Assembly: GCA_040217695.1 (NCBI GenBank)
Contig: JBEHWO010000002.1
Span: forward strand, 8,538-72,537
From: Vulcanimicrobiota bacterium
GTDB taxonomy: Bacteria > Vulcanimicrobiota > SpSt-956 > JAKJGF01
Direction: 5' to 3'
DNA length: 64,000 bases
Part shown: piece by piece, positions 3,829 to 36,060 of the stretch
How the letters are laid out: each line of letters opens with the position of its first letter
Position numbering within the stretch: the stretch's first letter is position 1
Position numbers and translations under genes: made by a program
Notes under the pieces: model-generated
What the model saw: only the letters and a program-made list of their open reading frames with translations
Told to the model about the DNA's origin: nothing
The model's database searches: none

Positions 3829-3927
3829 TATACCAAAGTATAACTTCACACAAACTATTCACTGTTTTTTCAGTCAAATTACCTATACTAAAGGATATAT
3901 TTCTTTATTTCCAATAAGCTGTATAAT
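3829..3927 (+). promoter_or_regulatory. Dual-box promoter module P1 (box A, box B, TATAAT) upstream of the GH63-like gene
   Basis: Box A tataccaaagtata 3829-3842. Box B tatactaaaggata 3884-3897, 55 nt later. tataat 3922-3927, 38 nt after the start of box B. No TTGACA-like -35. Confidence 0.55.
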
Positions 3928-3931
3928 ATAT

Positions 3932-4030
3932 TTACTGACCTAAGCATAAGCATGTAATAAAATTTTTTCCTCCCGTTACGCGTCACGCGTCACGAGAGCA
4001 GTTATGTATTATTTATGCTCACCTCAGTAA
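3932..4030. mobile_element. MITE-like repeat element, copy 1 (about 99 bp, TIR TTACTGAnnTGAGCATAA, CGTCACG heptamer core)
   Basis: ttactgacctaagcataagcatg..cctcccgttacgcgtcacgcgtcacgagagc..ttatgctcacctcagtaa. It is the reverse complement of the copies at 46312, 47238 and 56911. Confidence 0.7.
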
Positions 4031-4103
4031 TAAAACGATAGTGGGGAATTTTTTATCGGAGAATAATCAGGTAAACTATAATAAAATAAAGGAGATGCTC
4101 GTT

Positions 4104-6815
4104 ATGGCTCAAAAAACCCATGCAAATGAAGAAAAAAGACTTAAAGAAACAAAAGAAAAAAAGATACCATGGAAAAAATGGGGGCCCTATCTTTCAGATA
4201 GGCAGTGGGGTACTGTAAGGGAAGATTACAGCAGTGACGGAAATGCCTGGGATTATTTCCCCCATGATCAGTCCCGCTCCAGAGCATACAGATGGGGAGA
4301 AGACGGACTGGGAGGCATAAGTGATGAAAGACAGAACCTCTGTTTTGCCCTTGCCCTGTGGAACGGACAGGATGGGATAATCAAGGAAAGACTCTTCGGC
4401 CTCACAAACAGCGAGGGAAACCACGGAGAAGATGTAAAGGAATATTATTATTACCTTGACAGCACTCCAACCCATTCCTACATGAAATACCTCTATAAAT
4501 ATCCCCAGGATCCTTTCCCCTATGGACAGCTTATCAAAAAGAACAGGGAACTTACAAGACATGATTTCGAATATGAACTCATAAATACAGGAGTTTTCGA
4601 CAGAAACCGTTATTTTGATGCCTTTGTGGAATATGCCAAAAAAGACCCGGAGGAAATCTTAATAAAAATTACCATTCATAACAGAGGAGATATGGAGTGG
4701 ACTCTCCATGTAATGCCCACTCTATGGTTTCGGAATACATGGTCATGGTCTCAAGGTGCAGAGAGGCCGGAATTGAAAGAAGTAAAATCTTCTGTCATTA
4801 AGGCTTCCCACCCGGAACTTGGTGACAGGTACCTATACTGTGAAGGCTCTCCTGAACTTCTATTTACGGAAAATGAGACGAACATGGAGCGTATCTTCAA
4901 CAGAAAGAGCAGAACTCCCTATGTAAAAGACGGAATAAATAATTATGTAGTCTACGGAAAAAAAGAGGCAGTAAATCCGCAGAAAAGAGGGACAAAAGCA
5001 TCACCTTACTATGTCCTCAAAATAGCTCCCGGCAAGGCATCTGTCATAAGATTATGTCTCTCTGATAAAGGTCTTTCAGATTCTGGTAAAATATTTGAAA
5101 ATTTTGAAGATATAATGAAAACCCGTGTGGAAGAAACAGATGAATTTTATGAAACCATATCTCCTCCATCTCTTACGAAAGATGAAAAGAACGTAATGAG
5201 ACAGGCTCTTTCCGGAATGCTCTGGTCAAAACAGTTCTTCAATTTTGATCTTGATACATGGCTCAAAGAACATGGAGTGGATCCATTTAAGACCTTAAAA
5301 GCCTCGGGGGTAAGAAACAGCGAATGGCATCATATGATAAATGAAGATGTTGTATCCATGCCTGATAAATGGGAATATCCCTGGTATGCAGCATGGGATC
5401 TGGCCTTTCATACACTCGCCCTCGGCATGGTAGATATTGATTTTGCAAAAAGCCAGCTTGCTCTGATGCTGAAAGAAACCTATCTTCATCCCCATGGACA
5501 GATACCTGCCTATGAATGGAATTTCAGTGATGTAAATCCTCCGGTACATCCCTGGGCAACTATTTATCTCTACAGAATGGAAAAGGAACTTCATGGCAAA
5601 GCAGATATAAATTTCTTAAAACAGATGTTCACAAAACTTACATTAAACTTTTCCTGGTGGGTTAATAAAAAGGACAGAGGAGGAAGGAATATTTACGAAG
5701 GAGGCTTCCTGGGCCTTGATAATATAGGTATATTTGACAGGAGTTCTCCCCTTCCTACAGGAGGTTATCTTGAACAGGCAGATGCTACGGGATGGGTTGC
5801 CCTTTTTGCCCAGAATATGGTTGAAATAGGCCTTGAACTTGTCATGCATGATCCGACCTATGAAGATATGGTAATTAAATTTGTGGAACATCTTCTCTGG
5901 ATAGGCAATTCCATTTACAGACTCGGTGAACATTCGGAAGGCATGTGGGATGAAAAAGACGGATTTTTCTATGATGTATTGAGACTGCCTGACGGAAGCA
6001 GCCGCAGAATGAAGGTACGTTCTATGGTAGGACTTCTTCCTCTATGTGCCACAACTACAATATCTGCTGAAATGCTGGAGAAATTACCCCATCTTCTGGC
6101 CAGGGCAAAGAAGAGGGCTGAAAGATTACCGGAACTAAAGAAAGCCCTCACTTATATGGGGAAACCAGGTTTTAACGGAAACACTCTTCTGGCTCTTATT
6201 GATGAAGGGAAACTCAGGCGCATACTAAATAAATTACTCGATGAAAATGATTTTTTAAGCACATACGGCATAAGGGCTCTTTCCCGTTATCATCTTGAAC
6301 ATCCCTATGTCGTAAATATAAAGGGCCAGGAATTCCGTGTAGATTATGTTCCTGCAGAATCTGACACAGGCATGTTCGGAGGCAATTCAAACTGGAGGGG
6401 GCCCATATGGTTCCCCATGAATCTGCTCATTCTCAGGGGTCTCCTTATGTTCTACGGTTATTTCGGGAATGATTTTAAGGTAGAATGTCCCACAGGTTCA
6501 GGCATAAAAATGAATTTATTTGAAGTAACCCTGGAAATTGCCAGACGCCTTTCAAACATATTCCTGAAAGATGAACATGGTTTAAGGCCTGTTTACGGAG
6601 GGGCAGATAAATTCCAGAATGATCCCCATTTCCGTGATTATCTGTTATTTTATGAATATTTCCACGGAGACAATGGCGCAGGTATCGGTGCAAGCCATCA
6701 AACAGGCTGGACAGGACTTGTAGCAAGACTTATTCAGACTCTCGGCTTTGCCAATGCAGATAAATTACTCGGCGAGGGTGCTGCAAAAGGCGTAACTGCT
6801 TATAAAAAAAGTTAA
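4104..6815 (+). CDS. GH63-like (MGH1-type) glycoside hydrolase / glucosidase
   Basis: The long ORF is open from 4041. The ATG at 4104 sits 9 nt after AAGGAG. The N-terminal signature WGPYLSDRQWGTVREDYS..AWDYFPHDQSRSRAYRWGEDG..ERLFGLTN.EGNHGEDVKEYYYYLD and an (alpha/alpha)6-type C-terminus are recalled from this family. Confidence 0.75.
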   Translation: MAQKTHANEEKRLKETKEKKIPWKKWGPYLSDRQWGTVREDYSSDGNAWDYFPHDQSRSRAYRWGEDGLGGISDERQNLCFALALWNGQDGIIKERLFGLTNSEGNHGEDVKEYYYYLDSTPTHSYMKYLYKYPQDPFPYGQLIKKNRELTRHDFEYELINTGVFDRNRYFDAFVEYAKKDPEEILIKITIHNRGDMEWTLHVMPTLWFRNTWSWSQGAERPELKEVKSSVIKASHPELGDRYLYCEGSPELLFTENETNMERIFNRKSRTPYVKDGINNYVVYGKKEAVNPQKRGTKASPYYVLKIAPGKASVIRLCLSDKGLSDSGKIFENFEDIMKTRVEETDEFYETISPPSLTKDEKNVMRQALSGMLWSKQFFNFDLDTWLKEHGVDPFKTLKASGVRNSEWHHMINEDVVSMPDKWEYPWYAAWDLAFHTLALGMVDIDFAKSQLALMLKETYLHPHGQIPAYEWNFSDVNPPVHPWATIYLYRMEKELHGKADINFLKQMFTKLTLNFSWWVNKKDRGGRNIYEGGFLGLDNIGIFDRSSPLPTGGYLEQADATGWVALFAQNMVEIGLELVMHDPTYEDMVIKFVEHLLWIGNSIYRLGEHSEGMWDEKDGFFYDVLRLPDGSSRRMKVRSMVGLLPLCATTTISAEMLEKLPHLLARAKKRAERLPELKKALTYMGKPGFNGNTLLALIDEGKLRRILNKLLDENDFLSTYGIRALSRYHLEHPYVVNIKGQEFRVDYVPAESDTGMFGGNSNWRGPIWFPMNLLILRGLLMFYGYFGNDFKVECPTGSGIKMNLFEVTLEIARRLSNIFLKDEHGLRPVYGGADKFQNDPHFRDYLLFYEYFHGDNGAGIGASHQTGWTGLVARLIQTLGFANADKLLGEGAAKGVTAYKKS

Positions 6816-24584: not shown

Positions 24585-26159
24585 TCACTTTTCCTCTGTT
24601 TTTTGCAAAAACACAGTATGCAGTGGGAAGGCAAATTCAATCTTTTCCTTCTCAAAGAGGGATTTTATCCTCAGGAGTAGCTCTCTTTTTACTGTCCACT
24701 GCTGGAGAGGTGCTGTTTTGACAAACATACGAAGTTTCACTCCGGAAGCTGACAGTTCATCCACTCCGAGCATTACGGGTTTATCCAGTATTTTCTCAGG
24801 CCACTCCTCTTTTAATATCCTGCCGGTTTCAAGCATAAGTTCCATTGCTTTTTTAAGATCTGTATCATAGGAAACTGACAGGATACAATCGAACTGACTC
24901 CAGGTAGATGAAGAATTTTCCACAGAACGAATAAGAGAATTGGAAATTGTAATAAGACGTCCTTCAGTATCACGGACACGGGTGGATCTCAGATTAAAAT
25001 CCTCCACTATTCCTGCAAAACCGCCGGTGCGTATATGATCTCCTATGGCAAACTGGTCCTCTATAACAATAAAAGTGCCGGCAAAAAAATCTTTACAGAG
25101 ATCCTGAAATATAAGACTCAGCCCCACACCGATAATCCCTGCGCCTGTAAGACCTGCAGAAAAATCTACATTAAATGATTTGAGAACGATTATAGCCGCA
25201 AAAATTATCATGCCTGCTTTAACAAACATGGAGAGAACCATCCACCTCATTTTAAGGCGATGACTGGCACGAATGTCCTTTGTAAGTTCCCGGCCTTTCA
25301 ATTTCTCCGATAGTTCAGAGGAATATTTCAGAAACATATCGACAGGTTTAAAAAGCATGCTGAGAATTAAAATTGAAAGAAATAATATCAGCACAGGCTG
25401 TAAAATATTTTCTATAAGCTGTCTGGATAATAAACGGCTTACAGGAAATATCCAGAGGATATGGGAAATGACCCACATCCATATAACAATTGCCACGAAA
25501 TGGCCCGGCTCTTTAAACCATTTTCGATATACATAAATAACAATTACTGTTACCAGTATGCCTGCAATGAATGTTTTTAAAGACTCCACAAGAGCTTCTT
25601 TTTTATATCCTTCGCTTCTTTCCTTCATGGTACTGGCCAGTCCCTTTTCCAGTGCATCACGCCATAAACCTGCCAGTATACTTACGGAAGCATTGTTAGC
25701 AGATGCATCACCATTTGTGACAGAGAGAATAAAAATGCCTTTAGTCTCCAGTACAGGACATCCTTCAATTATTTTAACTACTACATAAGGTGGTTTATCT
25801 GTCCTCTGAAGGACAGCTTCAAGTCTCTCCTGAATAATACCCGCTCTTTCAGAGGCGCTCAGACCAGAGTCAGCCACTACATTGATAATAACTCTGTTAT
25901 TCAGCATAACAGGTGCTTTCTCAGGCGCCTGAGTGGCAGCAGGTAATGGTGTATTTAAAACAGCAGGTGTTGGTTCAGGCACAGAAGAAACAGTCGGTAC
26001 AGGTGTTTCTTTCACCTGGCTCCCGTCCTGTGTGGAAGATGAATTTACTGTCACCTCTGTCGGAACAGGGGATGTTTCTATCCCTTCTGCCCGCCATCCC
26101 TGGAATGACCAGGGTATGAGCAGGAATATTATTAAAGGTATTATCAAGTATTTATTCAT
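24585..26159 (-). CDS. MscS-family mechanosensitive channel, paralogue of 2066-3652
   Basis: Same architecture as the paralogue. GAGIIGVGLSLIFQDLCKDFFAGTFIVIEDQFAIGDHI..GIVEDFNLRSTRVRDTEG. Confidence 0.85.
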   Translation of the reverse strand: MNKYLIIPLIIFLLIPWSFQGWRAEGIETSPVPTEVTVNSSSTQDGSQVKETPVPTVSSVPEPTPAVLNTPLPAATQAPEKAPVMLNNRVIINVVADSGLSASERAGIIQERLEAVLQRTDKPPYVVVKIIEGCPVLETKGIFILSVTNGDASANNASVSILAGLWRDALEKGLASTMKERSEGYKKEALVESLKTFIAGILVTVIVIYVYRKWFKEPGHFVAIVIWMWVISHILWIFPVSRLLSRQLIENILQPVLILFLSILILSMLFKPVDMFLKYSSELSEKLKGRELTKDIRASHRLKMRWMVLSMFVKAGMIIFAAIIVLKSFNVDFSAGLTGAGIIGVGLSLIFQDLCKDFFAGTFIVIEDQFAIGDHIRTGGFAGIVEDFNLRSTRVRDTEGRLITISNSLIRSVENSSSTWSQFDCILSVSYDTDLKKAMELMLETGRILKEEWPEKILDKPVMLGVDELSASGVKLRMFVKTAPLQQWTVKRELLLRIKSLFEKEKIEFAFPLHTVFLQKTEEK

Positions 26160-26185: not shown

Positions 26186-26899
26186 TTATCCCTGGTTCCT
26201 TGCAAGCTCTTCGGCAAGAATGGGAATACTCAGGTTACAGGCCTGAACTCCATGTACCACGCACAGCTTGAGCACCTCCATAATCTCCTCCATAGATACG
26301 CCAAGTTTCAATGCCGCCTTAATATGACGGCAGGTGCCGGGGGCATACATATGAGTGTAAGATGCATCGAAGGCAATGCTTAGAAGCTCAATATCCTTTG
26401 GTGACAGGACATCGGTGCCGTAAATACCCATGCCTGTGGCAAAAAAATCATCAGTCCACATAGGATCGAGTTTAAATAAAGGATCCCATGCAGTATTCCA
26501 CTGGCCTATTTCTTTCATCTTATCACAGAACGGAGTAGCAGGTATGGATTGTTCTCTCTGTTTCACTCCTGCTTCTTTTGCTTCTTCAAGAAGAATGGGA
26601 GCGCCGAGACTGCATGAATGTATGGACAGAAGAGAGGCCATTTTGATTATCATCAGAATTTCTTCTTTTGTTGCTCCTTCCTTTAGAGCAGCTCTGATAT
26701 GACGTCTGGTTCCTTCAGGATTTAAATTCGTGCATGCTGCATTCAATGCAATACTGATTAATTCTACAGTTTTACGGGGCAGTACTCCTTTTTCCCATGG
26801 ATTTTTACTCATCTTTTCACAGACCCCGGCCCAGGAAGGATCCCACTCCTTCAGTAAGTCCAGAGACTCTTCCCAGGGGCCCTTATTTTTTTCTATCAT
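26186..26899 (-). CDS. Carboxymuconolactone decarboxylase (AhpD-like) family protein with two CMD repeats
   Basis: Internal duplication: ..LPRKTVELISIALNAACTNL..GTRRHIRAALKEGATKEEILMIIKMASL.. and ..LSPKDIELLSIAFDASYTHMYAPGTCRHIKAALKLGVSMEEIMEVLKLCVV.. Confidence 0.7.
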   Translation of the reverse strand: MIEKNKGPWEESLDLLKEWDPSWAGVCEKMSKNPWEKGVLPRKTVELISIALNAACTNLNPEGTRRHIRAALKEGATKEEILMIIKMASLLSIHSCSLGAPILLEEAKEAGVKQREQSIPATPFCDKMKEIGQWNTAWDPLFKLDPMWTDDFFATGMGIYGTDVLSPKDIELLSIAFDASYTHMYAPGTCRHIKAALKLGVSMEEIMEVLKLCVVHGVQACNLSIPILAEELARNQG

Positions 26900-26916
26900 A
26901 TTAATTCTCCTTATTT

Positions 26917-27840
26917 TTAAAAAACTTCATCAATAATTCCCTGGAGATGCTGCATTACATCGGAAGATGTTGAAGGAAAGTCTTCTAATTCATAAACCTT
27001 TCCCAGAAAACCGTATTTACTCCCTCCGAAACGGTGATATGGCAGAAGTTCATAGAGAACAACATTTTTATATTTCCTTACTGCATTCAGTACACCGCGG
27101 ATATGTTCTTCATAGTCATTTACGCCCGGAATGACGGGAGTCCTTGCAATGAATACTTTATCAGGAAAGGTTTCATAGGCTTTTCTGAAATTTTCAAGGC
27201 TGCGGGCGTTGTCAACTCCTGTCCATTTCCTGTGTCTCACAGGATCCATCTGCTTGTAATCGTGGAGCATTGTATCCACATGGGGAAGTACTTTTTCCAT
27301 AAAATGCCAGGGTACATTACCTGCCGTTTCTATGGCAGTATTAAAGCCCCTGTTGTGTGCTCCTTTAAGTAATGCAGCGCTGAAATCCGGCTGCATCAAA
27401 CACTCTCCTCCGGAAAGTGTAATACCTCCTCCTGATTCCCTGTAAAAACTGTCATCTCTTTCCACTTCATCAAGTACCTGATCCACAGTCATCTTCTGTC
27501 CGAAGAGATAAAGAGCTTTAGATGGGCATATGTCAACACATTTGCCGCAGTTTGTACAGAGATCCCAGTTAATTCTTACCTTATCGTCAGGTCGGTCCCC
27601 GGATCCTACTGTATATATGGCACATTCCGGGCATTCCTTCAGACAGAAGCCGCATTCCTTTTCACCGATACATCTTTTCATATCACAGGCCAGTTCCGGC
27701 TTATAGTGAATGCTTTCAGGGTTACAGCACCATTTACATCTAAGGGGGCATCCCTTCAGGAAAACATTGGTTCTAATACCCGGGCCGTCATGGGTGCAGA
27801 AATGCTGAATATTAAGAACTATACCTTCAGGATTTTCCAT
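26917..27840 (-). CDS. Glycyl-radical enzyme activating enzyme (radical SAM with auxiliary ferredoxin-type clusters)
   Basis: The ATG at 27840 lies 9 nt after GGAGGTG. THDGPGIRTNVFLKGCPLRCKWCCNPE. Extra Cys clusters CGFCLKECPECA and CTNCGKCVDICP. Confidence 0.85.
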   Translation of the reverse strand: MENPEGIVLNIQHFCTHDGPGIRTNVFLKGCPLRCKWCCNPESIHYKPELACDMKRCIGEKECGFCLKECPECAIYTVGSGDRPDDKVRINWDLCTNCGKCVDICPSKALYLFGQKMTVDQVLDEVERDDSFYRESGGGITLSGGECLMQPDFSAALLKGAHNRGFNTAIETAGNVPWHFMEKVLPHVDTMLHDYKQMDPVRHRKWTGVDNARSLENFRKAYETFPDKVFIARTPVIPGVNDYEEHIRGVLNAVRKYKNVVLYELLPYHRFGGSKYGFLGKVYELEDFPSTSSDVMQHLQGIIDEVF

Positions 27841-27841
27841 A

Positions 27842-28990
27842 TTATATGACACCTCCATCTCCGAGAGATATGCCCATAGCTCTTGCAATCTTCATAAATA
27901 AACTGTCAGATGGAACAGTCCTTATTTTATTAATAGCCTCCGTAAGAGGAACGAATTTGAGTTCAGGCGGTCTGAAAGACACCATTACACCGCTCAGATT
28001 TTCCTTCAGAGCAAGAACTGCCCCCGCACCATAGCCCATTGCAAGCTGTCTGTCCACTGCAGTCGGTGTCCCTCCTTTTACCAGAGGTCCTGTTACCAGG
28101 GGGTAAGTATCATGGGCAGTGAGGCGGCGAAGTTCCAGTGCCACACTATGGGCAGCATGACCTGTTCTTTCTATGACATGAGAGCCTTCAGCATCTGTAG
28201 CCAGAGGAGAAAGAGATGCTCTGAGAGGATTATTAACAGTCTGCTGGACGTTAGAAGGAGATGCACCATCTGCCACTATTACCAGTCCGTAAGTTTTTCC
28301 TCTCTTAAACTTCTCTTCCAGCTTTTCCGCCACCTTACGGAGATCGTAAGGTATTTCCGGTATAAGCACTGCATCGGCACATACTGCTATGGCAGACTGT
28401 AAAGCAAGCCATCCCGTGTGTTCGCCCATTACTTCCACTACTCCGATTTTTCCTGCCGATTCTGCTGCCTGTCTGGCTCTTTCCAGCAATTCTGTGGTAA
28501 AACTCAGTGTGCTGTTAAAGCCATAGGACAGCATGGTAGCTTCCATATCATTTTCTGCCGATTTCGGTATGCAGATAGTTTTAAGCCCCTTACGGTGTAA
28601 TTTATATATTATGCCGAGTGCTCTATTTCCTGATACCGAGATAACACTCTGAATATTTTCTTTACCTATCCTGTCCAGAAGTTCTTCAGATCTGTCTATC
28701 TCACTTACCCCCTCATCTGATTCAGTGCGGACATGAAAAGGATCTGTACTGGCCGATGTGCCCAGTATGCATCCTGTAGAACTTAAAAGACCTTCTACTA
28801 TGGCGGGAGTAAGTTTTACCGTGCCGCCATGGGGATAACGGTCAGGGAAAAGCAGTCCATCAAAGCCGTCTCTGATACCAATGACTTCCCATCCAAGTTC
28901 ATTTGCAGCCATTACTGCTCCTGCCAGGACAGAATTCAGGCCTGGCACATATCTGCCGGCAATATTAATGGCTATTTTCTGTGTGTTCAT
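27842..28990 (-). CDS. Phosphofructokinase-fold protein with degenerate catalytic and ATP-binding motifs
   Basis: Aligns with the PfkA layout, but GGD is AGR (IAINIAGRYVPGLN), GGDGS is SGNRA, TIDND is SAEND and MGR is MGE (VEVMGEHTGWLA). The ATG at 28990 was chosen; the longer 29089 ORF would overlap the upstream gene extensively. Confidence 0.65.
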   Translation of the reverse strand: MNTQKIAINIAGRYVPGLNSVLAGAVMAANELGWEVIGIRDGFDGLLFPDRYPHGGTVKLTPAIVEGLLSSTGCILGTSASTDPFHVRTESDEGVSEIDRSEELLDRIGKENIQSVISVSGNRALGIIYKLHRKGLKTICIPKSAENDMEATMLSYGFNSTLSFTTELLERARQAAESAGKIGVVEVMGEHTGWLALQSAIAVCADAVLIPEIPYDLRKVAEKLEEKFKRGKTYGLVIVADGASPSNVQQTVNNPLRASLSPLATDAEGSHVIERTGHAAHSVALELRRLTAHDTYPLVTGPLVKGGTPTAVDRQLAMGYGAGAVLALKENLSGVMVSFRPPELKFVPLTEAINKIRTVPSDSLFMKIARAMGISLGDGGVI

Positions 28991-29390
28991 AATCTTGTTC
29001 CTTTCTTTTCTTATAAAACAGGCGGGCAATATGTGTGGCAGGGCCACGTAACAGTATATATGGCACAGTAGCAAGGACCAGAGCCACAATCAGGGCCTGT
29101 ACCGGGTAAAAAAATCTGAGGGCTATTATCTGATATACAGTATCCAGTATAAAGGCAGCTATAAATATCTTACCAAAATCCTTCCACCCGTGCTGAAGGA
29201 GTCTTTTTCTTGTAGAGGGATTTGTAAGAATTTCCGATAAATAGGCAGGATTACCTTCCCTGGCATCTCTTATGCCGGCTCTTATTGCAAGGATGGAGGC
29301 CATGAGAGGCTGAAGGATCAGTCTCATATGCATTGGCCCATCTAACCGTCCAAGTAACTGTGTTATTCCACGAATTATCATTTCTTCCAT
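28965..29390 (-). CDS. Small membrane protein of unknown function, paralogue of 11357-11743
   Basis: See 11357-11743. Its 3' end overlaps the PFK-like gene by 26 nt. Confidence 0.7.
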   Translation of the reverse strand: MEEMIIRGITQLLGRLDGPMHMRLILQPLMASILAIRAGIRDAREGNPAYLSEILTNPSTRKRLLQHGWKDFGKIFIAAFILDTVYQIIALRFFYPVQALIVALVLATVPYILLRGPATHIARLFYKKRKEQDYEHTENSH

Positions 29391-29411
29391 AGTTTAGTTC
29401 CTCTGAGAAAT

Positions 29412-29446
29412 AGACCGGGAGTTAGATTGACTCTATCTCCCGGTCT
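29412..29446 (-). terminator. Intra-operon hairpin directly downstream of the GRE gene; possible partial terminator
   Basis: agaccgggag / 15-nt loop / ctcccggtct: a 10-bp perfect stem between the GRE stop (29451) and the next gene start (29390). Confidence 0.4.
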
Positions 29447-29450
29447 GTTA

Positions 29451-31928
29451 CTATACTTCCTCTGTCCTTGCTATAATCTCTGCCTGAAGTGCCGGCGAGA
29501 GATCCACAAAGTAGGCAGAATATCCTGCTATTCGCACAATGAGGTTACGGTATTTATCCGGTTCCTTCTGTGCTGCAAGGAGCGTTTCCCTGTTAAGAAT
29601 ATTGAACTGAATATGCCAGTGTTTCATCTGACTCCAGGAGCGGATTATCTGCATAAGTCTTCTTGTGCCTTCCTCTCCTGCAACACTGGCAGGGCTGAAC
29701 TTCATGTTCAGGAGGTCCGGCCCCTTTTCTTTATAGCTCAGGCATCTGCCTGCGGCTGCAGACTTCAGTGTGGCAGTAGGCCCTTTTACATCCATGCCGT
29801 GACAGGCGGAAATACCTTCGGACAGATATTCTCCGGCTTTTCTCCCGTTAGGTGTGGCCCATGTAACCATGCCCATAGGGACATGGAAGGTAATGGGAAC
29901 ACAGCGAAGGAGGAAACACTGTCCGTGAGGTTTTAAGTGTTTATCCAGATATTTCAGAATGAATTCTTCAATCCTCCAGCCAAGGTGATCCACCCATTCT
30001 ATATCATTTCCGAATTTGGGAGCATTAACACACATCTGTCTTATAGCTTCTTTGCCTTCCCAGTTCTTTTCTATGGCATCAAGGAGTTGATCCCAGGTGA
30101 GCTTCTTTGTGTCATAAATAAGATGTTTGACTGCTGCAAGGCTGTCTATGGCAGTGGCCTTTCCTATGGTTTCAAGACAGGAGTGGTCTATGCCTCCCGG
30201 AATATATTCACCATGTCTGTGCAGATCCATACAGTGTTCCATAGCAAGGTCGTGTAACATAGATGTGGCAGGAGCGGCAAAATAATTTGATTTAATCCTG
30301 AGTGCCACATGCTGCTGTATCATGGCATGTTTTGTCAGATGTTCTATCTGGGTGCAGAATGCTTTAAAGCAGTCCTCAAAATCAGACCATTCCCGCGGGT
30401 CTCCTGTATCAACACCGAATTGTATGTCTCTTAAAACTTTGAGTTTTCCCCTGCGGCACATCATCTCTACGGCAGAACCGTAGTTGAATCCTCCGTTCCC
30501 TGTAACATTTGTTTCCCTGTTAATAAGACGGTTTTCACAGCACCCTGATATGTTCCAGTCCAGAGCTTCATGTAAAGTGGCACCATTGGCCAGATAGAAG
30601 GGCACAATATACTCATCGTTCAGGAGTTTCGGGAAGCCCTTGCCGTCTTTTATAACCTCTGCCACATAATGGAGGAACTTATCAGGTGTACCGGCATGAA
30701 TTCTGATACATGGTTCAGGAGTGGTAATGGGAAGGGCTCTCGTAGATTCCAGTATAAGATAGGAAAGTTCATTTGTTGCATCCAGTCCGTCCGGAGTCTG
30801 TCCTCCCAGGCATATATCTTCGAATTTGGCAAATCCTTCGGCACCTTTTGCTACTACCGGGTTAAGTTTAAGCTCCACACATTGATTCATATTCAGCCAC
30901 ATACAATGAAGTAATTCTCTGGCGGATTCTTTCGTAATCCTTCCTTCAGAAATATCCTTCCTGTAATAAGGCAGGAGATACTGATCCCATCTGCCCTGTC
31001 CCATGGCACTGCTTGTCTGTTCTATGCGGTTAAACATCTGTCCCCACCACTGGGCCTGAAGGGCTTCATAGAAATTTCTTGCAGGATTTTCCGGCACATG
31101 ATTACAGATTTCTGCAATCTGTTTCAGTTCTTTTTTCCTCTGTTCATTCTTCTCTTTTTCTGCCATTTCATGTGCAAGGGCAGCATAACGTTTTGACCAT
31201 ATTGTCATGGCGTCACAGGCAATAATCACTGCCTCAAGGAAAGGCTTTTTATAGACAAAATCCCTTGGTTCTTCTATATCGGCCAGTTTTGCCTGAGCTT
31301 CTTCCCTTATGCCTTTACAGCCTTTCATAAGGATCTTGTTAAAGTCAGGGGTCCAGTTCTGGGAGTGGCGCATTATAGAACTTCCCATTATAACAAGAGT
31401 GAGAAGGACTGTATTCTTCGGATCAGGCCCGTATAGCATGGTTCTTGTTTCCTGCGGCAATTCCCTGTGATATGCAGTGCCATAATCCCTGCCTGACCAG
31501 TAAGGAGTGAGGATTTCATCTATTATCTTTTTATCCTCATCTGTTACCACTACTTCCCCTGTCTTTCCTTTATTTTTGAGAAATTCTTCCACACCCAGAG
31601 GCATAATGCTCCCGTCCAGTTCTGCATAGACGATACCCCATTTCCCGAGCCATGTATTTGGTCTTCCCAGAATGAGCTCATCATCGAAAATAGTTACAGG
31701 CACATGTTCTGCAAAATGCTTCTCCGCTTTCGCCCAGCGAAGAACAAGGGGCTGCCCTTCTGTTTCCTTCAGAGATTCTGTAAAGAGAACTGCTCTATCC
31801 AGGCTGACTCTTGGAGGGCCGTATTTCTGAATAGCTTCCAGTATCCTCAATACCCTGTCTGTGACTCCTTCCAGGAGGGATTTCTTTTCGCTATGAATAG
31901 CCTGTTCCTGTGTTGATAATACTTGCAT
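29451..31928 (-). CDS. Glycyl radical enzyme (PFL2/dehydratase-like clade), substrate unknown
   Basis: C-terminal glycyl motif LIVRIAGYSAYFVDLSPALQAEIIART, with Gly at 29523-29525. Catalytic Cys loop NISGCCENR at 30534-30545. The ATG at 31928 follows AAAGGA. Confidence 0.85.
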   Translation of the reverse strand: MQVLSTQEQAIHSEKKSLLEGVTDRVLRILEAIQKYGPPRVSLDRAVLFTESLKETEGQPLVLRWAKAEKHFAEHVPVTIFDDELILGRPNTWLGKWGIVYAELDGSIMPLGVEEFLKNKGKTGEVVVTDEDKKIIDEILTPYWSGRDYGTAYHRELPQETRTMLYGPDPKNTVLLTLVIMGSSIMRHSQNWTPDFNKILMKGCKGIREEAQAKLADIEEPRDFVYKKPFLEAVIIACDAMTIWSKRYAALAHEMAEKEKNEQRKKELKQIAEICNHVPENPARNFYEALQAQWWGQMFNRIEQTSSAMGQGRWDQYLLPYYRKDISEGRITKESARELLHCMWLNMNQCVELKLNPVVAKGAEGFAKFEDICLGGQTPDGLDATNELSYLILESTRALPITTPEPCIRIHAGTPDKFLHYVAEVIKDGKGFPKLLNDEYIVPFYLANGATLHEALDWNISGCCENRLINRETNVTGNGGFNYGSAVEMMCRRGKLKVLRDIQFGVDTGDPREWSDFEDCFKAFCTQIEHLTKHAMIQQHVALRIKSNYFAAPATSMLHDLAMEHCMDLHRHGEYIPGGIDHSCLETIGKATAIDSLAAVKHLIYDTKKLTWDQLLDAIEKNWEGKEAIRQMCVNAPKFGNDIEWVDHLGWRIEEFILKYLDKHLKPHGQCFLLRCVPITFHVPMGMVTWATPNGRKAGEYLSEGISACHGMDVKGPTATLKSAAAGRCLSYKEKGPDLLNMKFSPASVAGEEGTRRLMQIIRSWSQMKHWHIQFNILNRETLLAAQKEPDKYRNLIVRIAGYSAYFVDLSPALQAEIIARTEEV

Positions 31929-31979
31929 AAATATAATCCTTTCTTTCAGGGGCGCATATCTCACTGCACCCCTGTGTGA

Positions 31980-32801
31980 TTAATGATGCCCTTTTGCTTT
32001 CATTTCTTCCATTCTCTGTCTCACTATGGGACGGAGATCTTCTCCGAAACCAGTAAGGACGCCGCCGTCCACTGCCAGGAACTGTCCTGTAATCATATCT
32101 GATTTATCACTGGCAAGAAATACTGCTGCATAACCTATTTCTTCTATCGTACAGAAACGGCCAAGGGGAACCAGTCTTTTGCTGACCTTATCCCTGTATT
32201 CCTGAGTGGTTCCTTCTGCCATAAGAGGAGTAAAAACTCCTCCCGGACAGATGGCATTTACATTAATACGGCTGTCTGCAAGTTCCCAGGCAAGGTGATG
32301 GGTAAGTCCTGTCACTGCATATTTTGAAGCAGTATAGTCTGCACTGCCGAAAAAGGTCATTCTGAGGCCTGCTGTAGAGGCTATGTTGATTATCTTTCCT
32401 TTACCCTGTGACATCATAGTGGGAATAACTGCCTGACAGCAGATATAAACACCTTTCAGGTTCACTCCCAGAGTTCTGTCCCATTGATCTTCAGGAATAT
32501 CTTTTAAAAGACGGGGCGGTGCTTCTATGCCGGCATTATTTACCAGAATATCAACTGAACCGTATTCTTTCAGAGTGGCAGCAACCATAGAGTCAACCTC
32601 TGATTTCTTTACTACATCTGCAGCAATGGGCATAGCAATACCCCCTGCTGCTATGATTTCCTGAGCTGTGCCTTCAACTTCTTTCAATTTCCTGCCGTTT
32701 ATGATAACCTTTGCCCCGGCACGGGCGAATTCCATAGCTATACCTTTTCCTATGCCTCTTCCTGAGCCTGTTACAATTGCTACTTTATCTTTTAATTCCA
32801 T
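31980..32801 (-). CDS. Short-chain dehydrogenase/reductase (FabG-like)
   Basis: TGSGRGIGKGIA (TGxxxGxG), NNAG, and the S..YxxxK triad (YTASKYAV). Confidence 0.85.
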   Translation of the reverse strand: MELKDKVAIVTGSGRGIGKGIAMEFARAGAKVIINGRKLKEVEGTAQEIIAAGGIAMPIAADVVKKSEVDSMVAATLKEYGSVDILVNNAGIEAPPRLLKDIPEDQWDRTLGVNLKGVYICCQAVIPTMMSQGKGKIINIASTAGLRMTFFGSADYTASKYAVTGLTHHLAWELADSRINVNAICPGGVFTPLMAEGTTQEYRDKVSKRLVPLGRFCTIEEIGYAAVFLASDKSDMITGQFLAVDGGVLTGFGEDLRPIVRQRMEEMKAKGHH

Positions 32802-33011: not shown

Positions 33012-33099
33012 ATTATAGCAATAATAACAGAAGGATGTAAATTATACTTTAGTATAGGTTCACTGCTATGGTTTGATAAAATTTATATACTAAAGTATA
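33012..33099 (-). promoter_or_regulatory. Dual-box promoter P4-minus driving the SDR-GRE operon
   Basis: On the minus strand: box A 33099-33086, box B 33056-33043 (tatactaaagtata, 43 nt later), tataat 33017-33012 (39 nt after the start of box B). Confidence 0.55.
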
Positions 33100-33129
33100 A
33101 TTTGTATTTTTTATTAAATCTAATATAAT
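33043..33129 (+). promoter_or_regulatory. Dual-box promoter P4-plus; uses the same two boxes in mirror image
   Basis: Box A 33043-33056, box B tatactaaagtata 33086-33099 (43 nt), tataat 33124-33129 (38 nt). It points into the antisense strand of the PIN/antitoxin pair. Confidence 0.5.
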
Positions 33130-33590: not shown

Positions 33591-33829
33591 TTTTTTTCTC
33601 CATATAAATATTGATTATGATTTTCAGAAGGATTATCTAAAATACCTTCTACAGCATCTTCTCCAAATTTTTTTAATAATTCCCAGCCTTCCAATCTGAC
33701 TGACGGCAATATAAATATAGCCCCCTTCTGGATTACTAATTCCACCTCTTCACCTATATCTGCTTCATTTATTATAGATTTTCCAAGTACAAGACGATTA
33801 TTTATTTTTTGTTTTAAAATCCTGCTCAT
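33587..33829 (-). CDS. vapB: AbrB/SpoVT-type antitoxin (VapB-like)
   Basis: 80 aa. RLVLGKSIINEADIGEEVELVIQKGAIFILP, a swapped-hairpin barrel signature. Translationally coupled to the PIN gene. Confidence 0.7.
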   Translation of the reverse strand: MSRILKQKINNRLVLGKSIINEADIGEEVELVIQKGAIFILPSVRLEGWELLKKFGEDAVEGILDNPSENHNQYLYGEKK

Positions 33830-33989: not shown

Positions 33990-34088
33990 TATACTAAAGT
34001 ATAGTTTTTTTATTTTTTACATAATATATTTCTCATAGTTTCTTATACTAAAGGGTAATATACTTACCATATTTCCCAATGATATAAT
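33990..34088 (+). promoter_or_regulatory. Dual-box promoter module P5
   Basis: Box A tatactaaagtata 33990-34003. Box B tatactaaagggta 34044-34057 (54 nt). tataat 34083-34088 (39 nt). Confidence 0.55.
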
Positions 34089-34144
34089 AAATTAATTCTC
34101 TTCTTTAGAAAAATCACCGGTAATTATAAAAGGAGGTTACATTT

Positions 34145-35191
34145 ATGAAAGCAATTATAGTTGACCCGAAAGTTCCAAATTCCGCAAGACTGGAAGATAT
34201 ACCTGAGCCGGATATAAGTGAAGGATCAGTTCTTGTGGAAGCCATTGCCGTAGGTGTCTGCGGTACAGATGTGGAGATTGTAGAAGGTAAATACGGATGG
34301 GCACCGCCGGGATATAAAAGTCTTGTGCTCGGTCATGAATCCCTTGGAAGGGTAATAGATCCCGGGCCGAAGAGCCATTTAAAAAAGGGAGATCTCGTAG
34401 CCGGTATAGTCCGTCGTCCTGATCCTGTGCCATGTCCTAACTGTGCCGTAGGTGAGTGGGATATGTGCCGTAACGGCCAGTATACAGAGAGAGGTATTAA
34501 AGAAATTCACGGATTTATGTCAGAAAGATGGCGCACCGAACCGGAATATGCCATAAAGGTAGATCCTTCCCTTGGAATACTTGGAGTACTTCTGGAACCT
34601 ATGACAGTTATAACTAAAGCCCTGGAACAGGTAGTCTTTGGAGGAAGGAGGTCCTTCTGGGAACCGAAAACTGTCCTCGTTACAGGAGTCGGTGCCATAG
34701 GCCTCCTGGCAGCACTCAGAGTGAAAGCTATAGGTCTTGAGCTCCATGTTCTTGCCAGAACCAAAACGGGACTCAAGCCGGAACTGGTACGTGAACTGGG
34801 CGCAAACTATCATACAGGAAGTGTCCTGGACCTTGACTTTGAACCTGATGTCATAGTGGAGTGCACCGGTGTCGGTTCTGTAATATCAGAATGTATACAG
34901 AAAGTCGGAGCAGGAGGAATAATATGTCTCACAGGAGTCGGATCTGGAGGTTTTGCCAACAGACCTGTAGCAGATATTGCATCGGCAGCAGTTCTCAAAA
35001 ACAATCTGATTGTAGGAAGTGTAAATGCCAACAAACGTCACTGGTATAAAGCTGCTGAGAACCTGGCTTCTTCTGACAGAAAGTGGTTGAGAAAGATGAT
35101 CACCAGAATTGAAAAACCTGAGAATTTCAAAGATGCTCTGGCAAGAAGCTCAGAGGATATAAAAGTTATCATTCAGTTCAGCGAGGTGTAA
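34145..35191 (+). CDS. Zn-dependent MDR dehydrogenase, glucose 1-dehydrogenase-like
   Basis: The RBS AAGGAGG is present. AIAVGVCGTDVEIVEGKYG..LVLGHESLGRV, structural-Zn Cys cluster PDPVPCPNCAVGEWDMC, and Rossmann motif VTGVGAIGLL. Confidence 0.8.
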   Translation: MKAIIVDPKVPNSARLEDIPEPDISEGSVLVEAIAVGVCGTDVEIVEGKYGWAPPGYKSLVLGHESLGRVIDPGPKSHLKKGDLVAGIVRRPDPVPCPNCAVGEWDMCRNGQYTERGIKEIHGFMSERWRTEPEYAIKVDPSLGILGVLLEPMTVITKALEQVVFGGRRSFWEPKTVLVTGVGAIGLLAALRVKAIGLELHVLARTKTGLKPELVRELGANYHTGSVLDLDFEPDVIVECTGVGSVISECIQKVGAGGIICLTGVGSGGFANRPVADIASAAVLKNNLIVGSVNANKRHWYKAAENLASSDRKWLRKMITRIEKPENFKDALARSSEDIKVIIQFSEV

Positions 35192-35199
35192 TATATATA

Positions 35200-35907
35200 A
35201 TGAAAAATTATAATGAACAGAATATTCCGGGCCAGGAGGCATTAATCCACCCGATAACTACGGACTGGATCGATATTTCTGTGCCGATTTATTCCGGTAT
35301 GGTCCACTGGCCAGGCGATCCTGCCGTGCAGATCGAACTTGTTCATGATATGTCCCGTGGAGATGTGGCCAATGTTTCAAAGCTGGATATGGGTGCCCAT
35401 AGTGGCACCCATATGGATGGACTCCGGCATTTCATTGCAGACGGTGCAGGGCTCGATGAAATGCCACTGGATGCCACGATTGGCCCGGCCCGGGTGATAC
35501 CCATAAAGCATCATGAGGCTATACTTCCTGCAGAGCTGGAGTTACACAGTCTGAAAGCAGGGGAGCGAGTACTCTTTCGCACCAGAAACTCAGAAAGATG
35601 CTGGAAAGAAAGCAGATTTATCGAAGATTTTGTCTATATAAGTGCTACAGCAGCAAAATTCCTTGTTCAGAAAAAGATAAGGACTGTAGGCATTGATTAC
35701 CTGTCAGTGGGAGGTTATGTCCACGATGGCGTCGAAACCCATCAAATACTACTTGGTGCTGGAATATGGCTCATAGAAGGGCTAAACCTGTCTGCTGTGA
35801 AACCAGGAACCTATGAACTGGTCTGTCTGCCTCTGAGAGTTCTCGGTTCCGATGGAGCACCGGCAAGGGCTATTCTGAGGGAGGCCGGTCATCAGGCAAG
35901 CAAATAA
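35200..35907 (+). CDS. Cyclase-family protein (arylformamidase/kynurenine formamidase-like)
   Basis: HWPGDP..GAHSGTHMDGLRHF..VGIDYLSVG. Confidence 0.8.
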   Translation: MKNYNEQNIPGQEALIHPITTDWIDISVPIYSGMVHWPGDPAVQIELVHDMSRGDVANVSKLDMGAHSGTHMDGLRHFIADGAGLDEMPLDATIGPARVIPIKHHEAILPAELELHSLKAGERVLFRTRNSERCWKESRFIEDFVYISATAAKFLVQKKIRTVGIDYLSVGGYVHDGVETHQILLGAGIWLIEGLNLSAVKPGTYELVCLPLRVLGSDGAPARAILREAGHQASK

Positions 35908-36000: not shown

Positions 36001-36060
36001 AAGTCAGGAGAGGGGGCGAATTTAATTGTTTATCTTTTAAGGTTTAAAGGAACAGCCAAT

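What the first reader, a model, noticed from the sequence alone, without database searches (positions are those of the whole stretch)
26186..32801. Uncharacterised glycyl-radical-enzyme operon with an atypical partner set and a Cys-Cys-Glu catalytic loop
Seen in the sequence:
- The operon on the minus strand runs SDR, then GRE (glycyl motif RIAGYS, Gly at 29523-29525), then a hairpin, a small membrane protein, a degenerate PFK-fold protein, the activase, and a double-CMD (AhpD-like) protein.
- The GRE thiyl loop reads SGCCENR (30534-30545). The 1,2-eliminating GREs I recall carry G-C-V-E, and pyruvate formate-lyase carries C-C-V-S.
- No microcompartment shell genes, no choline/propanediol/hydroxyproline accessory genes and no decarboxylase small subunit are present.
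- The operon is driven by one arm of the dual-box divergent promoter. That links it to the sugar-related genes that carry the same promoter module.

Inference: this is a GRE of new substrate specificity. The SDR and the kinase-fold partner suggest a sugar or sugar-acid derivative as substrate.
Basis: partly seen in the sequence, partly recalled or inferred. Interest (0 to 1): 0.65.

Follow-up and report, generated by a model that had tools for sequence, protein, structure and literature searches.

The report
Uncharacterised glycyl-radical lyase operon with pseudo-phosphofructokinase
This is a real operon for an oxygen-sensitive radical enzyme from a widespread, unstudied sister branch of the bacterial sulfonate-cleaving enzymes, and it nearly always travels with a catalytically dead copy of the glycolytic enzyme phosphofructokinase; its substrate is unknown.

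Summary
The minus strand carries SDR, GRE (RIAGYS, G-C-C-E loop), a stable hairpin, a small ORF, a PFK-fold protein, the activase and a double-CMD protein at the stated coordinates.

The GRE belongs to no characterised clade. It is 46% identical to IseG and 45% to HpsG, and scores just under NCBIfam's HpsG cut-off (988 vs 1000). More than 120 homologues at 69-78% identity occur in at least 10 phyla, including cyanobacteria and Bradyrhizobium.

Of 25 non-redundant loci of at least 12 kb, 23 carry the PFK-like gene, 23 the activase, 19 the SDR and 14 the CMD protein. A GH63-like glucosidase and an archaeal-type glucose dehydrogenase are frequent neighbours, and in the window they share the operon's palindromic operator.

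The PFK-like protein has lost the ATP, Mg and phosphate-binding residues across the whole family.

The second Cys is the X of the eliminase CXE motif, not a PFL-type pair. Orthologous operons carry Met, Ser or Ile there.

Both sulfonate-binding arginines are kept, and the third ligand is Gln to Asn. My best reading is a 1,2-eliminase acting on a hydroxylated organic anion, most likely a new desulfonating lyase. The substrate is not resolved.

The parts
31980..32801 (-). Short-chain dehydrogenase/reductase, first gene of the operon
   Evidence: Pfam adh_short_C2 E=3.7e-62. Orthologues at 54-73% identity sit next to the GRE in 19 of 25 loci. The nearest solved relatives are 3-oxoacyl and 3-hydroxybutyrate dehydrogenases, a generic match.
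29451..31928 (-). Glycyl radical enzyme, 825 aa from ATG 31928 (the ORF extends to GTG 31964)
   Evidence: PFL-like plus Gly_radical domains. Best NCBIfam model is HpsG-type at 988 bits against a cut-off of 1000. Best PDB matches are 5YMR, 6LON and 7KQ3. Identity is 46% to IseG and 45% to HpsG.
29523..29525 (-). Radical-bearing glycine of RIAGYS
   Evidence: Coordinates verified. The motif is RIAGYS in 119 and RVAGYS in 1 of 120 homologues.
30534..30545 (-). Cys loop G-C-C-E (a CXE eliminase motif with X = Cys)
   Evidence: It aligns with SGCTE of IseG and HpsG. X is Cys in 112, Met in 7 and not matched in 1 of 120 homologues. X is Ser in L031, Ile in P0362 and Val in P0361.
31353..31370 (-). 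Beta-1 anion site R-H-S-Q-N-W (IseG has R187-S-S-I190-Q191-W)
   Evidence: RHSQNW is present in 118 of 120 homologues. The Arg is kept, Ile changes to Gln and Gln changes to Asn. The Asn aligns with His164 of glycerol dehydratase.
29883..29906 (-). Beta-8 strand R-C-V-P-I-T-F-H (IseG has R676-Y-V-P-F680-T-S-H)
   Evidence: The second anion-binding Arg is kept, and Phe680 changes to Ile or Val, as in HpsG.
29412..29446 (-). Stable stem-loop directly after the GRE stop codon, with a weak U tract
   Evidence: -24.1 kcal/mol, z = -4.8. Sequence shown.
28965..29390 (-). 141-aa hydrophobic ORF, specific to this lineage
   Evidence: No Pfam or NCBIfam hit. No counterpart in any related locus apart from L006, the public copy of this same operon.
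27842..28990 (-). PFK-fold pseudo-kinase
   Evidence: Pfam PFK E=2.7e-62, but 247 bits against the 430 cut-off of TIGR02483. Changes relative to canonical PFK: GGD to GRY here (GGY in the family), GGDGS to SGNRA, TIDND to SAEND, MGR to MGE, R243 to Y, H249 to P. Present in 23 of 25 loci, directly upstream of the activase where gene order was inspected.
26917..27840 (-). GRE-activating radical SAM enzyme
   Evidence: TIGR02494 at 327 bits against a cut-off of 174. The HpsH-type model gives 389 bits against 430. Present in 23 of 25 loci.
26186..26899 (-). Protein with two CMD (carboxymuconolactone-decarboxylase/AhpD-fold) domains
   Evidence: Pfam CMD, two stretches. PDB 2Q0T at E=4e-37, function unknown. 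No CxxC motif; invariant ACT...TRxH and HSCS. Present in 14 of 25 loci.
33012..33099 (.). Promoter region of the operon: -35/-10 at 33041-33012 (minus strand) and two palindromic boxes at 33043-33056 and 33086-33099
33990..35907 (+). Co-regulated unit: boxes at 33990-34003 and 34044-34057, glucose-dehydrogenase-like MDR at 34145-35191, cyclase-family hydrolase at 35200-35907
   Evidence: Pfam Glu_dehyd_C and Cyclase. PDB archaeal glucose dehydrogenases. Orthologues at 71-74% identity lie in 8 of 25 GRE loci.
3829..6815 (+). Co-regulated unit: boxes at 3829-3842 and 3884-3897, GH63-like 'glucosidase' at 4041-6815
   Evidence: Pfam MGH1-like_GH and Glyco_hydro_63. The same family lies in 11 of 25 GRE loci. 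It is a very large family that NCBI names 'glucosidase'.

Best explanation
The operon encodes a working glycyl-radical 1,2-eliminase of new substrate specificity. It belongs to a widespread sister lineage of the isethionate and dihydroxypropanesulfonate sulfite-lyases.

Shown by the sequence:
- The activase (26917-27840) is of the type that installs the radical on Gly (29523-29525).
- The first Cys of G-C-C-E is the catalytic thiyl residue, and the Glu of the CXE motif is the base for the substrate hydroxyl.
- Two arginines inherited from the sulfonate lyases, plus a Gln/Asn pair, form an anion site.
- The pocket is larger and more polar than in IseG.

Inferred mechanism:
- The substrate is a small organic anion with a hydroxyl next to the carbon that carries the leaving group.
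- My first choice is a hydroxy-sulfonate other than isethionate or (S)-DHPS, with sulfite leaving. The alternatives are given as rivals.
- Hydrogen abstraction at the carbinol carbon is followed by deprotonation by Glu and loss of the leaving group. This yields a carbonyl product, which the co-transcribed SDR reduces (or the SDR makes the carbinol substrate).

Inferred roles of the partners:
- The PFK-fold protein cannot phosphorylate anything. It most likely acts as a non-catalytic partner or ligand sensor of the GRE/activase pair.
- The double-CMD protein and an SBF-type anion transporter are frequent accessories.

In this organism the operon is controlled by the same palindromic operator as a glucoside-hydrolysis and glucose-oxidation module.

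The confidence of 0.5 is for the general statement: a functional eliminase of new specificity acting on a hydroxylated organic anion, with a non-kinase PFK-fold partner. The sulfonate choice alone I put at about 0.4.
For: - GRE, activase and CXE features.
- Separate clade: 46% and 45% identity to IseG and HpsG; the NJ tree places the window clade with L031, P0362 and P0361, next to but outside the IseG/HpsG group.
- Closest 50%-identity representatives are only 59%, 57% and 50% identical.
- Clade signature RHSQNW, Phe in place of the IslA Trp, and R-x-[IV]-P-[IV]-T-F-H.
- Both sulfonate-binding Arg are retained, and all other IseG contacts changed: I190Q, Q191N, T310S, F680I.
- The beta-1 site that holds the general-acid His in glycerol dehydratase holds Asn here. 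This favours a leaving group that needs no protonation.
- Conserved module across at least 10 phyla: PFK-like 23/25, activase 23/25, SDR 19/25, CMD 14/25.
- Sulfur-flavoured neighbours in divergent members: rhodanese and SulP in L031, a YeiH/PF03601 transporter in L033. The link of PF03601 to sulfonate catabolism is my own recollection.
- SBF transporter in about 10 loci.
- Pseudo-kinase status of the PFK-like protein.
- Shared operator.
- No description in the literature searched.
Against: - No substrate was tested, and the anion could be a carboxylate or a phosphate ester.
- The third sulfonate ligand (Gln) and the IslA-specific Trp are not kept.
- No sulfite reductase, TauE-type sulfite exporter or known sulfonate-pathway gene was seen in any neighbourhood.
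- The recurrent neighbours are glucose-related (GH63-like, glucose dehydrogenase, glucokinase-like, G6P dehydrogenase, alpha-amylase-like) or beta-keto-acid related (BKACE, acetoacetate decarboxylase family, CMD). These fit a sugar-acid or hydroxy-acid substrate better.
- One orthologous locus (L019) lacks the PFK-like gene, so that partner is not indispensable.
- The partner role of the PFK-like protein rests only on gene order and conservation.
Confidence: 0.5

Rival explanations
1. The enzyme is a radical dehydratase acting on a hydroxy-carboxylate, such as glycerate, 3,4-dihydroxybutyrate (the carboxylate analogue of DHPS), or a C4-C6 aldonic acid made by the adjacent glucosidase, glucose dehydrogenase and lactonase-like genes. 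The two arginines hold the carboxylate. The product is a (beta-)keto or aldehyde acid, which the SDR reduces or the CMD protein decarboxylates.
For: - GH63-like glucosidase and glucose-dehydrogenase-like genes are co-localised (11/25 and 8/25) and share the operator in the window.
- BKACE occurs in L004 and L033, an acetoacetate-decarboxylase-family gene in L001, carbonic anhydrase in L031, and the CMD protein in 14 of 25 loci.
- The SDR's best solved relatives are 3-oxoacyl and 3-hydroxybutyrate dehydrogenases.
- SBF/BASS and Asp-Al_Ex transporters are known, from my own knowledge, for hydroxy-, keto- and dicarboxylates.
Against: - The beta-1 position of the general-acid His of C-O eliminases is Asn.
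- The nearest characterised enzymes all bind sulfonates.
- The SDR similarity is generic.
- The glucosidase/dehydrogenase module belongs to a far larger family than the GRE and may simply be a neighbour.
Confidence: 0.25
2. The enzyme is an ordinary orthologue of isethionate sulfite-lyase (IslA/IseG) or DHPS sulfolyase (HpsG). The SDR would act as a sulfoacetaldehyde or sulfolactaldehyde reductase, as one JGI annotation of a homologue suggests.
For: - Best PDB and NCBIfam matches are IseG, HpsG and IslA, and the score is only 12 bits under the HpsG cut-off.
- Both arginines and the CXE motif are kept.
- P0109 is labelled 'isethionate sulfite-lyase' by JGI.
Against: - Identity is 45-46%, whereas IseG and HpsG, which use different substrates, share 64%.
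- Gln191, Ile190, Thr310, Phe680 and the family Trp are all replaced.
- The activase is below its cut-off.
- The hosts are cyanobacteria, Acidobacteriota, Planctomycetota and Bradyrhizobium rather than sulfite respirers.
- No sulfite-respiration, taurine or microcompartment genes are nearby.
Confidence: 0.12
3. The enzyme is a phosphate-eliminating lyase acting on a hydroxy-phosphate ester or hydroxy-phosphonate, for example glycerol phosphate, 6-phosphogluconate or 2-hydroxyethylphosphonate. The PFK-fold protein would be a phosphosugar-binding partner.
For: - The anion site has two Arg plus extra Gln/Asn donors, and the pocket is larger than in IseG.
- Sugar-phosphate genes are nearby: phosphoglucomutase, phosphoglycerate mutase, glucokinase-like, G6P dehydrogenase, 6-phosphogluconolactonase.
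- The IslA paper notes that its site should accommodate hydroxyethylphosphonate.
Against: - The PFK-like protein has lost the arginines that bind the phosphates of fructose phosphate.
- There are no phosphonate or phosphite genes nearby.
- Frequent anion importers suggest an external substrate, not a phosphorylated intermediate.
Confidence: 0.1
4. The adjacent cysteines act as a PFL-type radical relay for C-C bond cleavage.
For: Two neighbouring Cys in the thiyl loop.
Against: - The register is wrong. The first Cys aligns with the universal catalytic Cys and the second with the X of CXE, whereas in PFL the extra Cys precedes it (the PFL C418/C419 roles are stated in the abstract of PMC12338860, listed).
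- The Glu of CXE is present.
- X is Met, Ser, Ile or Val in orthologous operons.
- The PFL model scores 86 bits against a cut-off of 994.
Confidence: 0.02

Closest known systems
Isethionate sulfite-lyase IseG/IslA (PDB 5YMR, 7KQ3)
   Same: Same fold, glycyl motif and CXE loop. Both sulfonate-binding arginines are present. It is the best sequence match in the PDB. It uses a cognate activase with ferredoxin-like insert.
   Different: - Only 46% identical.
- Q191N, I190Q, T310S, F680I and Trp to Phe.
- No microcompartment and no sulfite-respiration context.
- Always paired with a pseudo-PFK and an SDR.
(S)-DHPS sulfolyase HpsG with activase HpsH (PDB 6LON; NCBIfam NF048011/NF048010)
   Same: Highest-scoring curated family models (988 and 389 bits). 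Ile at the Phe680 position as in HpsG. The proposed mechanism is the same: loss of an anionic group next to a carbinol.
   Different: - Both scores fall under the curated cut-offs (1000 and 430).
- 45% identity.
- Different beta-1 motif (RHSQNW against RSALQW), Trp to Phe, and one residue fewer in the Thr310 loop.
Glycerol and propanediol dehydratases, and HpfG (C-O cleaving GRE eliminases)
   Same: CXE motif and the same overall 1,2-elimination logic. A downstream NAD(P)H-dependent reductase is typical.
   Different: - Much lower similarity (455 bits for 1R8W, 414 bits for the HpfG model).
- The general-acid His164 position is Asn.
- Two arginines are present that these enzymes lack.
Pyruvate formate-lyase
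   Same: Same superfamily. Two adjacent cysteines in the thiyl loop.
   Different: The extra Cys is on the other side of the catalytic Cys. The Glu of CXE is present instead of Ser. The PFL model scores 86 bits against a cut-off of 994.
ATP- and PPi-dependent 6-phosphofructokinases (PF00365; e.g. PDB 4PFK)
   Same: Clear PFK fold with conserved core motifs: PGLN, (S)xEND, VVEV.G, AEG, GG.PT..D.
   Different: - GGD to GGY.
- The Mg-binding Asp of GGDGS is lost and that position is variable.
- R171E, R243Y, H249 variable, D127E.
- Below every NCBIfam PFK cut-off.
- Encoded directly upstream of a GRE activase.
PDB 2Q0T, putative gamma-carboxymuconolactone decarboxylase subunit (structural genomics)
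   Same: Same two-domain CMD architecture, E=4e-37.
   Different: Its function is unknown too. There is no CxxC motif of AhpD-type peroxidases.

Membership tests
Glycyl radical enzyme superfamily (PFL-like) | PFL-like barrel domain plus C-terminal glycyl-radical domain with an RVxG[FWY]-type motif | tested here: met
   PF02901 E=4.7e-169 and PF01228 E=1.6e-28. RIAGYS at residues 811-816.
Glycyl radical enzyme superfamily (PFL-like) | Cognate radical-SAM activase encoded nearby | tested here: met
   TIGR02494 at 327 bits against a cut-off of 174. The CPLRCKWC cluster motif is visible in the translation.
Glycyl radical enzyme superfamily (PFL-like) | A glycyl radical actually forms and catalysis occurs | not testable with these tools
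   Needs anaerobic reconstitution and EPR.
GRE 1,2-eliminases and isomerases | [quoted passage not shown] | tested here: met
   SGC-C-ENR aligns with SGC-T-EAR of IseG. Motif definition taken from PMC13450708.
C-S cleaving GREs (IslA/IseG/HpsG) | Arg-Gln-Arg sulfonate triad (IseG R187, Q191, R676) | tested here: not met
   Both Arg are kept, but Gln is Asn in 120 of 120 homologues. Triad definition.
C-S cleaving GREs (IslA/IseG/HpsG) | Family-specific Trp (IslA W374) packing on the Gly and Cys loops | tested here: not met
   Phe (Tyr in a few) in the clade.
C-S cleaving GREs (IslA/IseG/HpsG) | Score above the curated NCBIfam cut-offs for HpsG and HpsH | tested here: not met
   988 against 1000, and 389 against 430.
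C-S cleaving GREs (IslA/IseG/HpsG) | Sulfite release from a hydroxy-sulfonate | not testable with these tools
   Requires an enzyme assay.
C-O cleaving GRE dehydratases (GD/PD type) | General-acid His on beta-1 (GD His164) to protonate the leaving hydroxyl | tested here: not met
   GD His164 aligns with the Asn of QNW. The role of this His is described.
Pyruvate formate-lyase | Cys-Cys pair with the extra Cys N-terminal to the radical-accepting Cys, and a score above the PFL model cut-off | tested here: not met
   The extra Cys is C-terminal. TIGR01255 scores 86 against 994.
6-phosphofructokinase (for the PFK-fold protein) | PF00365 fold | tested here: met
   E=2.7e-62.
6-phosphofructokinase (for the PFK-fold protein) | Catalytic and ligand residues: GGD, the Asp of GGDGS, D127, R162, R171, R243, H249, R252 | tested here: not met
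   Alignment to 3PFK/4PFK, family alignments, and all NCBIfam PFK cut-offs missed.
AhpD-type alkylhydroperoxidase (for the CMD protein) | CxxC...H active-site motif | tested here: not met
   No CxxC in either domain across 13 orthologues. TIGR00778 scores 23.3 against 27.8.

The most novel reading that the evidence does not exclude
The GRE performs a reaction not yet known for the family: radical removal of sulfite or phosphate from, or an unusual dehydration of, a sugar-derived acid. It would form a new anaerobic branch of glucoside or sulfo-sugar catabolism used by cyanobacteria, glycogen-accumulating Competibacteraceae, Acidobacteriota, Planctomycetota and others. The dead phosphofructokinase would be an obligatory structural or regulatory subunit of the GRE/activase system, a kind of GRE accessory subunit not described before.
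Probability: 0.15. Interest if true: 0.85.

Novelty: new variant of a known kind. Interest (0 to 1): 0.6.

Why it matters
The 2026 review consulted here lists thirteen named GRE 1,2-eliminases and isomerases. Recent additions such as IslA, HpsG and HypD revealed a sizeable anaerobic flux of carbon, sulfur or nitrogen.

This clade is abundant in soil, sediment, sludge and cyanobacterial genomes and is highly conserved (about 70-78% identity across phyla). It sits next to the sulfonate lyases but has a rebuilt pocket.

Identifying its substrate would add a reaction to anaerobic carbon or sulfur cycling outside the gut.

The near-obligate pseudo-phosphofructokinase would be a new type of GRE partner. 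It is also a clear case of a glycolytic enzyme recruited as a non-catalytic protein. It is currently mis-annotated as 6-phosphofructokinase in public records, which distorts metabolic reconstructions of these genomes.

Tried and rejected
- Rfam scan of the whole window found nothing. The high-GC stretch at 12-18 kb is a sulfatase island, not rRNA.
- Literature searches for this gene combination and for new GREs from 2024 to 2026 found no description.
- The PFL-like reading of the Cys-Cys pair was rejected on register and on variability of the X position.
- The small membrane ORF (28965-29390) was tested as a conserved partner and rejected. It has no counterpart in any related locus apart from L006, the public copy of this same operon.
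- I first counted the PfkB kinase at 40468-41376 as part of the regulon. The boxes at 39858-39915 lie downstream of that gene and upstream of the 162-aa ORF at 39283-39771, so I withdrew it.
- The neighbourhood of the 50% representative P0363 was uninformative because the contigs are 3-4 kb.
- P0361 (59% identical) has an activase but no PFK-like or SDR gene nearby.
- A metagenome scan added loci but no new recurrent neighbour family.
- I did not predict the GRE structure. Coordinates are not returned, and fold matches would only recover IseG and HpsG.
- The organism was not identified. The closest GRE homologues are unnamed metagenome proteins at 78% identity.


Full report
**Observation.** The minus strand between 26186 and 32801 carries six ORFs in one direction:
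- an SDR (31980-32801);
- a glycyl radical enzyme (29451-31964; the likely start is ATG 31928, giving the 825-aa protein found in public data);
- a 141-aa hydrophobic ORF (28965-29390);
- a PFK-fold protein (27842-28990);
- a GRE activase (26917-27840);
- a protein with two CMD domains (26186-26899).

Pfam and NCBIfam confirm each assignment. The stated codons are correct: the Gly of RIAGYS is 29523-29525 and G-C-C-E is 30534-30545. The hairpin after the GRE stop (29412-29446) is real and stable, at -24.1 kcal/mol, z = -4.8. Its U tract is poor, so it is more likely an attenuator or stabiliser than a full terminator; this is inference. No shell-protein gene and no known GRE accessory gene is in the annotated surroundings.

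**Promoter module.** The palindrome TATACTWWAGTATA occurs 14 times against 1.5 expected. It occurs in pairs 43-55 bp apart upstream of six units:
- the GRE operon (33043 and 33086), where it abuts an 11/12 sigma-70-like promoter on the minus strand;
- the glucose-dehydrogenase-like gene plus a cyclase-family hydrolase (33990 and 34044);
- a 924-aa GH63-like glucosidase plus an esterase (3829 and 3884);
- an ORF without a family at 9281-10471;
- an SLH-domain protein at 18827-21133;
- a 162-aa ORF at 39283-39771.

**Position of the GRE among known enzymes.** The best solved relatives are IseG (5YMR), HpsG (6LON) and IslA (7KQ3), followed at a distance by CutC and glycerol dehydratase. The best curated model is the HpsG-type DHPS enzyme, at 988 bits against a cut-off of 1000. 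The activase scores 389 against 430 for HpsH.

In a joint alignment the window protein is 46% identical to IseG and 45% to HpsG. Those two enzymes, which use different substrates, are 64% identical to each other. A search of 1.84 billion 50%-identity representatives gives nearest representatives at 59%, 57% and 50%. A neighbour-joining tree groups the window clade with these. It lies beside, not inside, the IseG/HpsG group.

**Active-site comparison.** The papers on IseG and IslA name these contacts: Arg187, Gln191 and Arg676 for the sulfonate; Ile190, Thr310 and Phe680 for packing; and a family-specific Trp. In this clade:
- both arginines are kept;
- Gln191 is Asn;
- Ile190 is Gln;
- Thr310 is Ser, next to a one-residue deletion;
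- Phe680 is Ile or Val, as in HpsG;
- the Trp is Phe.

RHSQNW is present in 118 of 120 close homologues. The Asn aligns with His164 of glycerol dehydratase, the general acid of the C-O eliminases. The site therefore still binds an anion, is roomier and more polar, and lacks the acid expected of a simple diol dehydratase.

**The Cys-Cys-Glu loop.** The first Cys aligns with the universal catalytic Cys. The second is the X of the CXE motif that all GRE eliminases and isomerases share. In PFL the additional Cys lies on the other side. Among 120 homologues X is Cys in 112, Met in 7 and not matched in 1. In more distant operons that keep the same partners it is Ser (L031) or Ile (P0362/L033). In P0361 it is Val. 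CCE is thus a useful clade marker but is very unlikely to carry a special catalytic role.

**Distribution and partners.** Homologues at 69-78% identity are numerous in metagenomes. Named sources include Phycisphaerae, Syntrophorhabdaceae, Competibacteraceae, Verrucomicrobiota, Phormidium and Bradyrhizobium. Species-representative genomes add Acidobacteriota, Nitrospirota, Aminicenantes, Ignavibacteriota, other cyanobacteria and a Mycobacteriaceae fragment.

| Gene | Present in non-redundant clade loci of at least 12 kb (of 25) |
|---|---|
| PFK-like | 23 |
| Activase | 23 |
| Orthologous SDR | 19 |
| Double-CMD protein | 14 |
| GH63-like glucosidase | 11 |
| Glucose-dehydrogenase-like | 8 |

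Other recurrent neighbours are an SBF-family anion transporter (about 10 loci), a MIP channel (8), an Asp-Al_Ex-type transporter and an outer-membrane channel. Occasional neighbours are:
- glucokinase-like, G6P dehydrogenase, transaldolase, alpha-amylase-like and phosphoglycerate mutase genes;
- BKACE, an acetoacetate-decarboxylase-family protein and AcnX;
- carbonic anhydrase, rhodanese, SulP and a YeiH-family transporter.

The small hydrophobic ORF is confined to this lineage.

**The PFK-fold protein.** It matches PF00365 strongly but misses every curated PFK cut-off. Alignment with Bacillus PFK and across the family shows these changes:

| Canonical PFK | This family |
|---|---|
| GGD | GGY (GRY in the window) |
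| Mg-binding Asp of GGDGS | replaced by a variable residue |
| TIDND | SxEND |
| MGR | (L/M)GE |
| R243 | Y |
| H249 | variable |

Phosphoryl transfer is therefore not expected. Even so, the protein is 47-67% identical across phyla. In the loci whose gene order was inspected it sits immediately upstream of the activase. Public records call it 6-phosphofructokinase. One orthologous locus (L019) lacks it. I infer a non-catalytic partner or ligand-sensing role; nothing here demonstrates one.

**The CMD protein.** It resembles a structural-genomics protein of unknown function, 2Q0T. It lacks the CxxC of AhpD-type peroxidases.

**Mechanism proposed.**
- Shown: all parts needed for a working GRE eliminase are intact and under strong purifying selection.
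- Inferred: the thiyl radical on Cys475 abstracts hydrogen from a carbinol carbon. Glu477 deprotonates the hydroxyl. A neighbouring group held by Arg199, Arg687, Gln202 and Asn203 departs. The resulting carbonyl compound is handled by the SDR.

My estimates for the leaving group or substrate class are:
- a sulfonate (sulfite leaving), about 0.4. Lineage, the retained arginines, Asn at the acid site, and sulfur-related transporters and rhodanese in divergent members favour this;
- a hydroxy-carboxylate dehydration, about 0.25. The glucose-oxidation and beta-keto-acid flavoured neighbours favour this;
- a phosphate ester or phosphonate, about 0.1;
- plain IslA/HpsG function, about 0.12.

**Novelty.** No paper in the searchable library describes this clade or a GRE with a PFK-like partner. 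The June 2026 review of GREs lists no such enzyme and notes that whole clades remain unvalidated. I rate it a new variant of a known kind: a GRE eliminase of unknown specificity with a conserved, unprecedented partner set.

Noticed in passing
window 3964, 41382, 45137, 46449, 46602, 49344, 50140, 53430, 56938, 58588 (and others): Short arrays of the heptamer CGTGACG/CGTCACG recur at 12 or more mostly intergenic sites, concentrated in the 41-59 kb part of the window (families D1 and D2).
   Followed up: no
window 3829-3897, 9065-9132, 18683-18750, 33043-33099, 33990-34057, 39858-39915: Paired copies of the palindrome TATACTWWAGTATA define a small regulon: GH63-like glucosidase with an esterase, two ORFs without a family, an SLH protein, the GRE operon, and the glucose-dehydrogenase-like gene. 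No regulator was identified.
   Followed up: partly
window 33174-33829 (-): A PIN-domain toxin with a small upstream antitoxin-like ORF sits between the GRE-operon promoter and the glucose-dehydrogenase promoter. The box region is duplicated on either side (33059-33112 against 33963-34016, 70% identity). This looks like an insertion into a formerly divergent promoter.
   Followed up: partly
window 11691-17390 (+): A higher-GC stretch (0.47-0.55 against about 0.38) carries a radical SAM/SPASM enzyme with a SEC-C motif, a DUF1254/DUF1214 protein and a sulfatase. This looks like a sulfatase with its anaerobic maturase, possibly acquired horizontally.
   Followed up: no
window 2066-3652 (-) and 24585-26159 (-): Two MscS-type mechanosensitive channel paralogues (72% DNA identity over 300 nt). 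One is encoded next to the glucosidase unit and the other directly downstream of the GRE operon.
   Followed up: no
L019 (Thermodesulfobacteriota MAG), L031 (Deltaproteobacteria MAG), L033 (metagenome contig): Variant operons. L019 lacks the PFK-like gene and has a GCME loop. L031 has a GCSE loop with AcnX, rhodanese, beta-carbonic anhydrase, SBF and SulP genes. L033 has a GCIE loop with a YeiH-family transporter between the GRE and the PFK-like gene, plus BKACE.
   Followed up: partly
window 4041-6815 (+) and homologues P0121-P0240: The roughly 900-aa GH63-like 'glucosidase' belongs to a very large family that is highly conserved (62-68% identity across phyla). It has no solved structure and no NCBIfam model, and it is often adjacent to the archaeal-type glucose-dehydrogenase-like gene.
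   Followed up: partly
window 35977-39198 (+), 41533-43293 (-), 47348-49342 (+): A 1073-aa repeat-rich protein (not annotated here), a HEAT-repeat protein and a Ser/Thr protein kinase lie downstream of the regulon. An acetate kinase is at 43796-44992.
   Followed up: no
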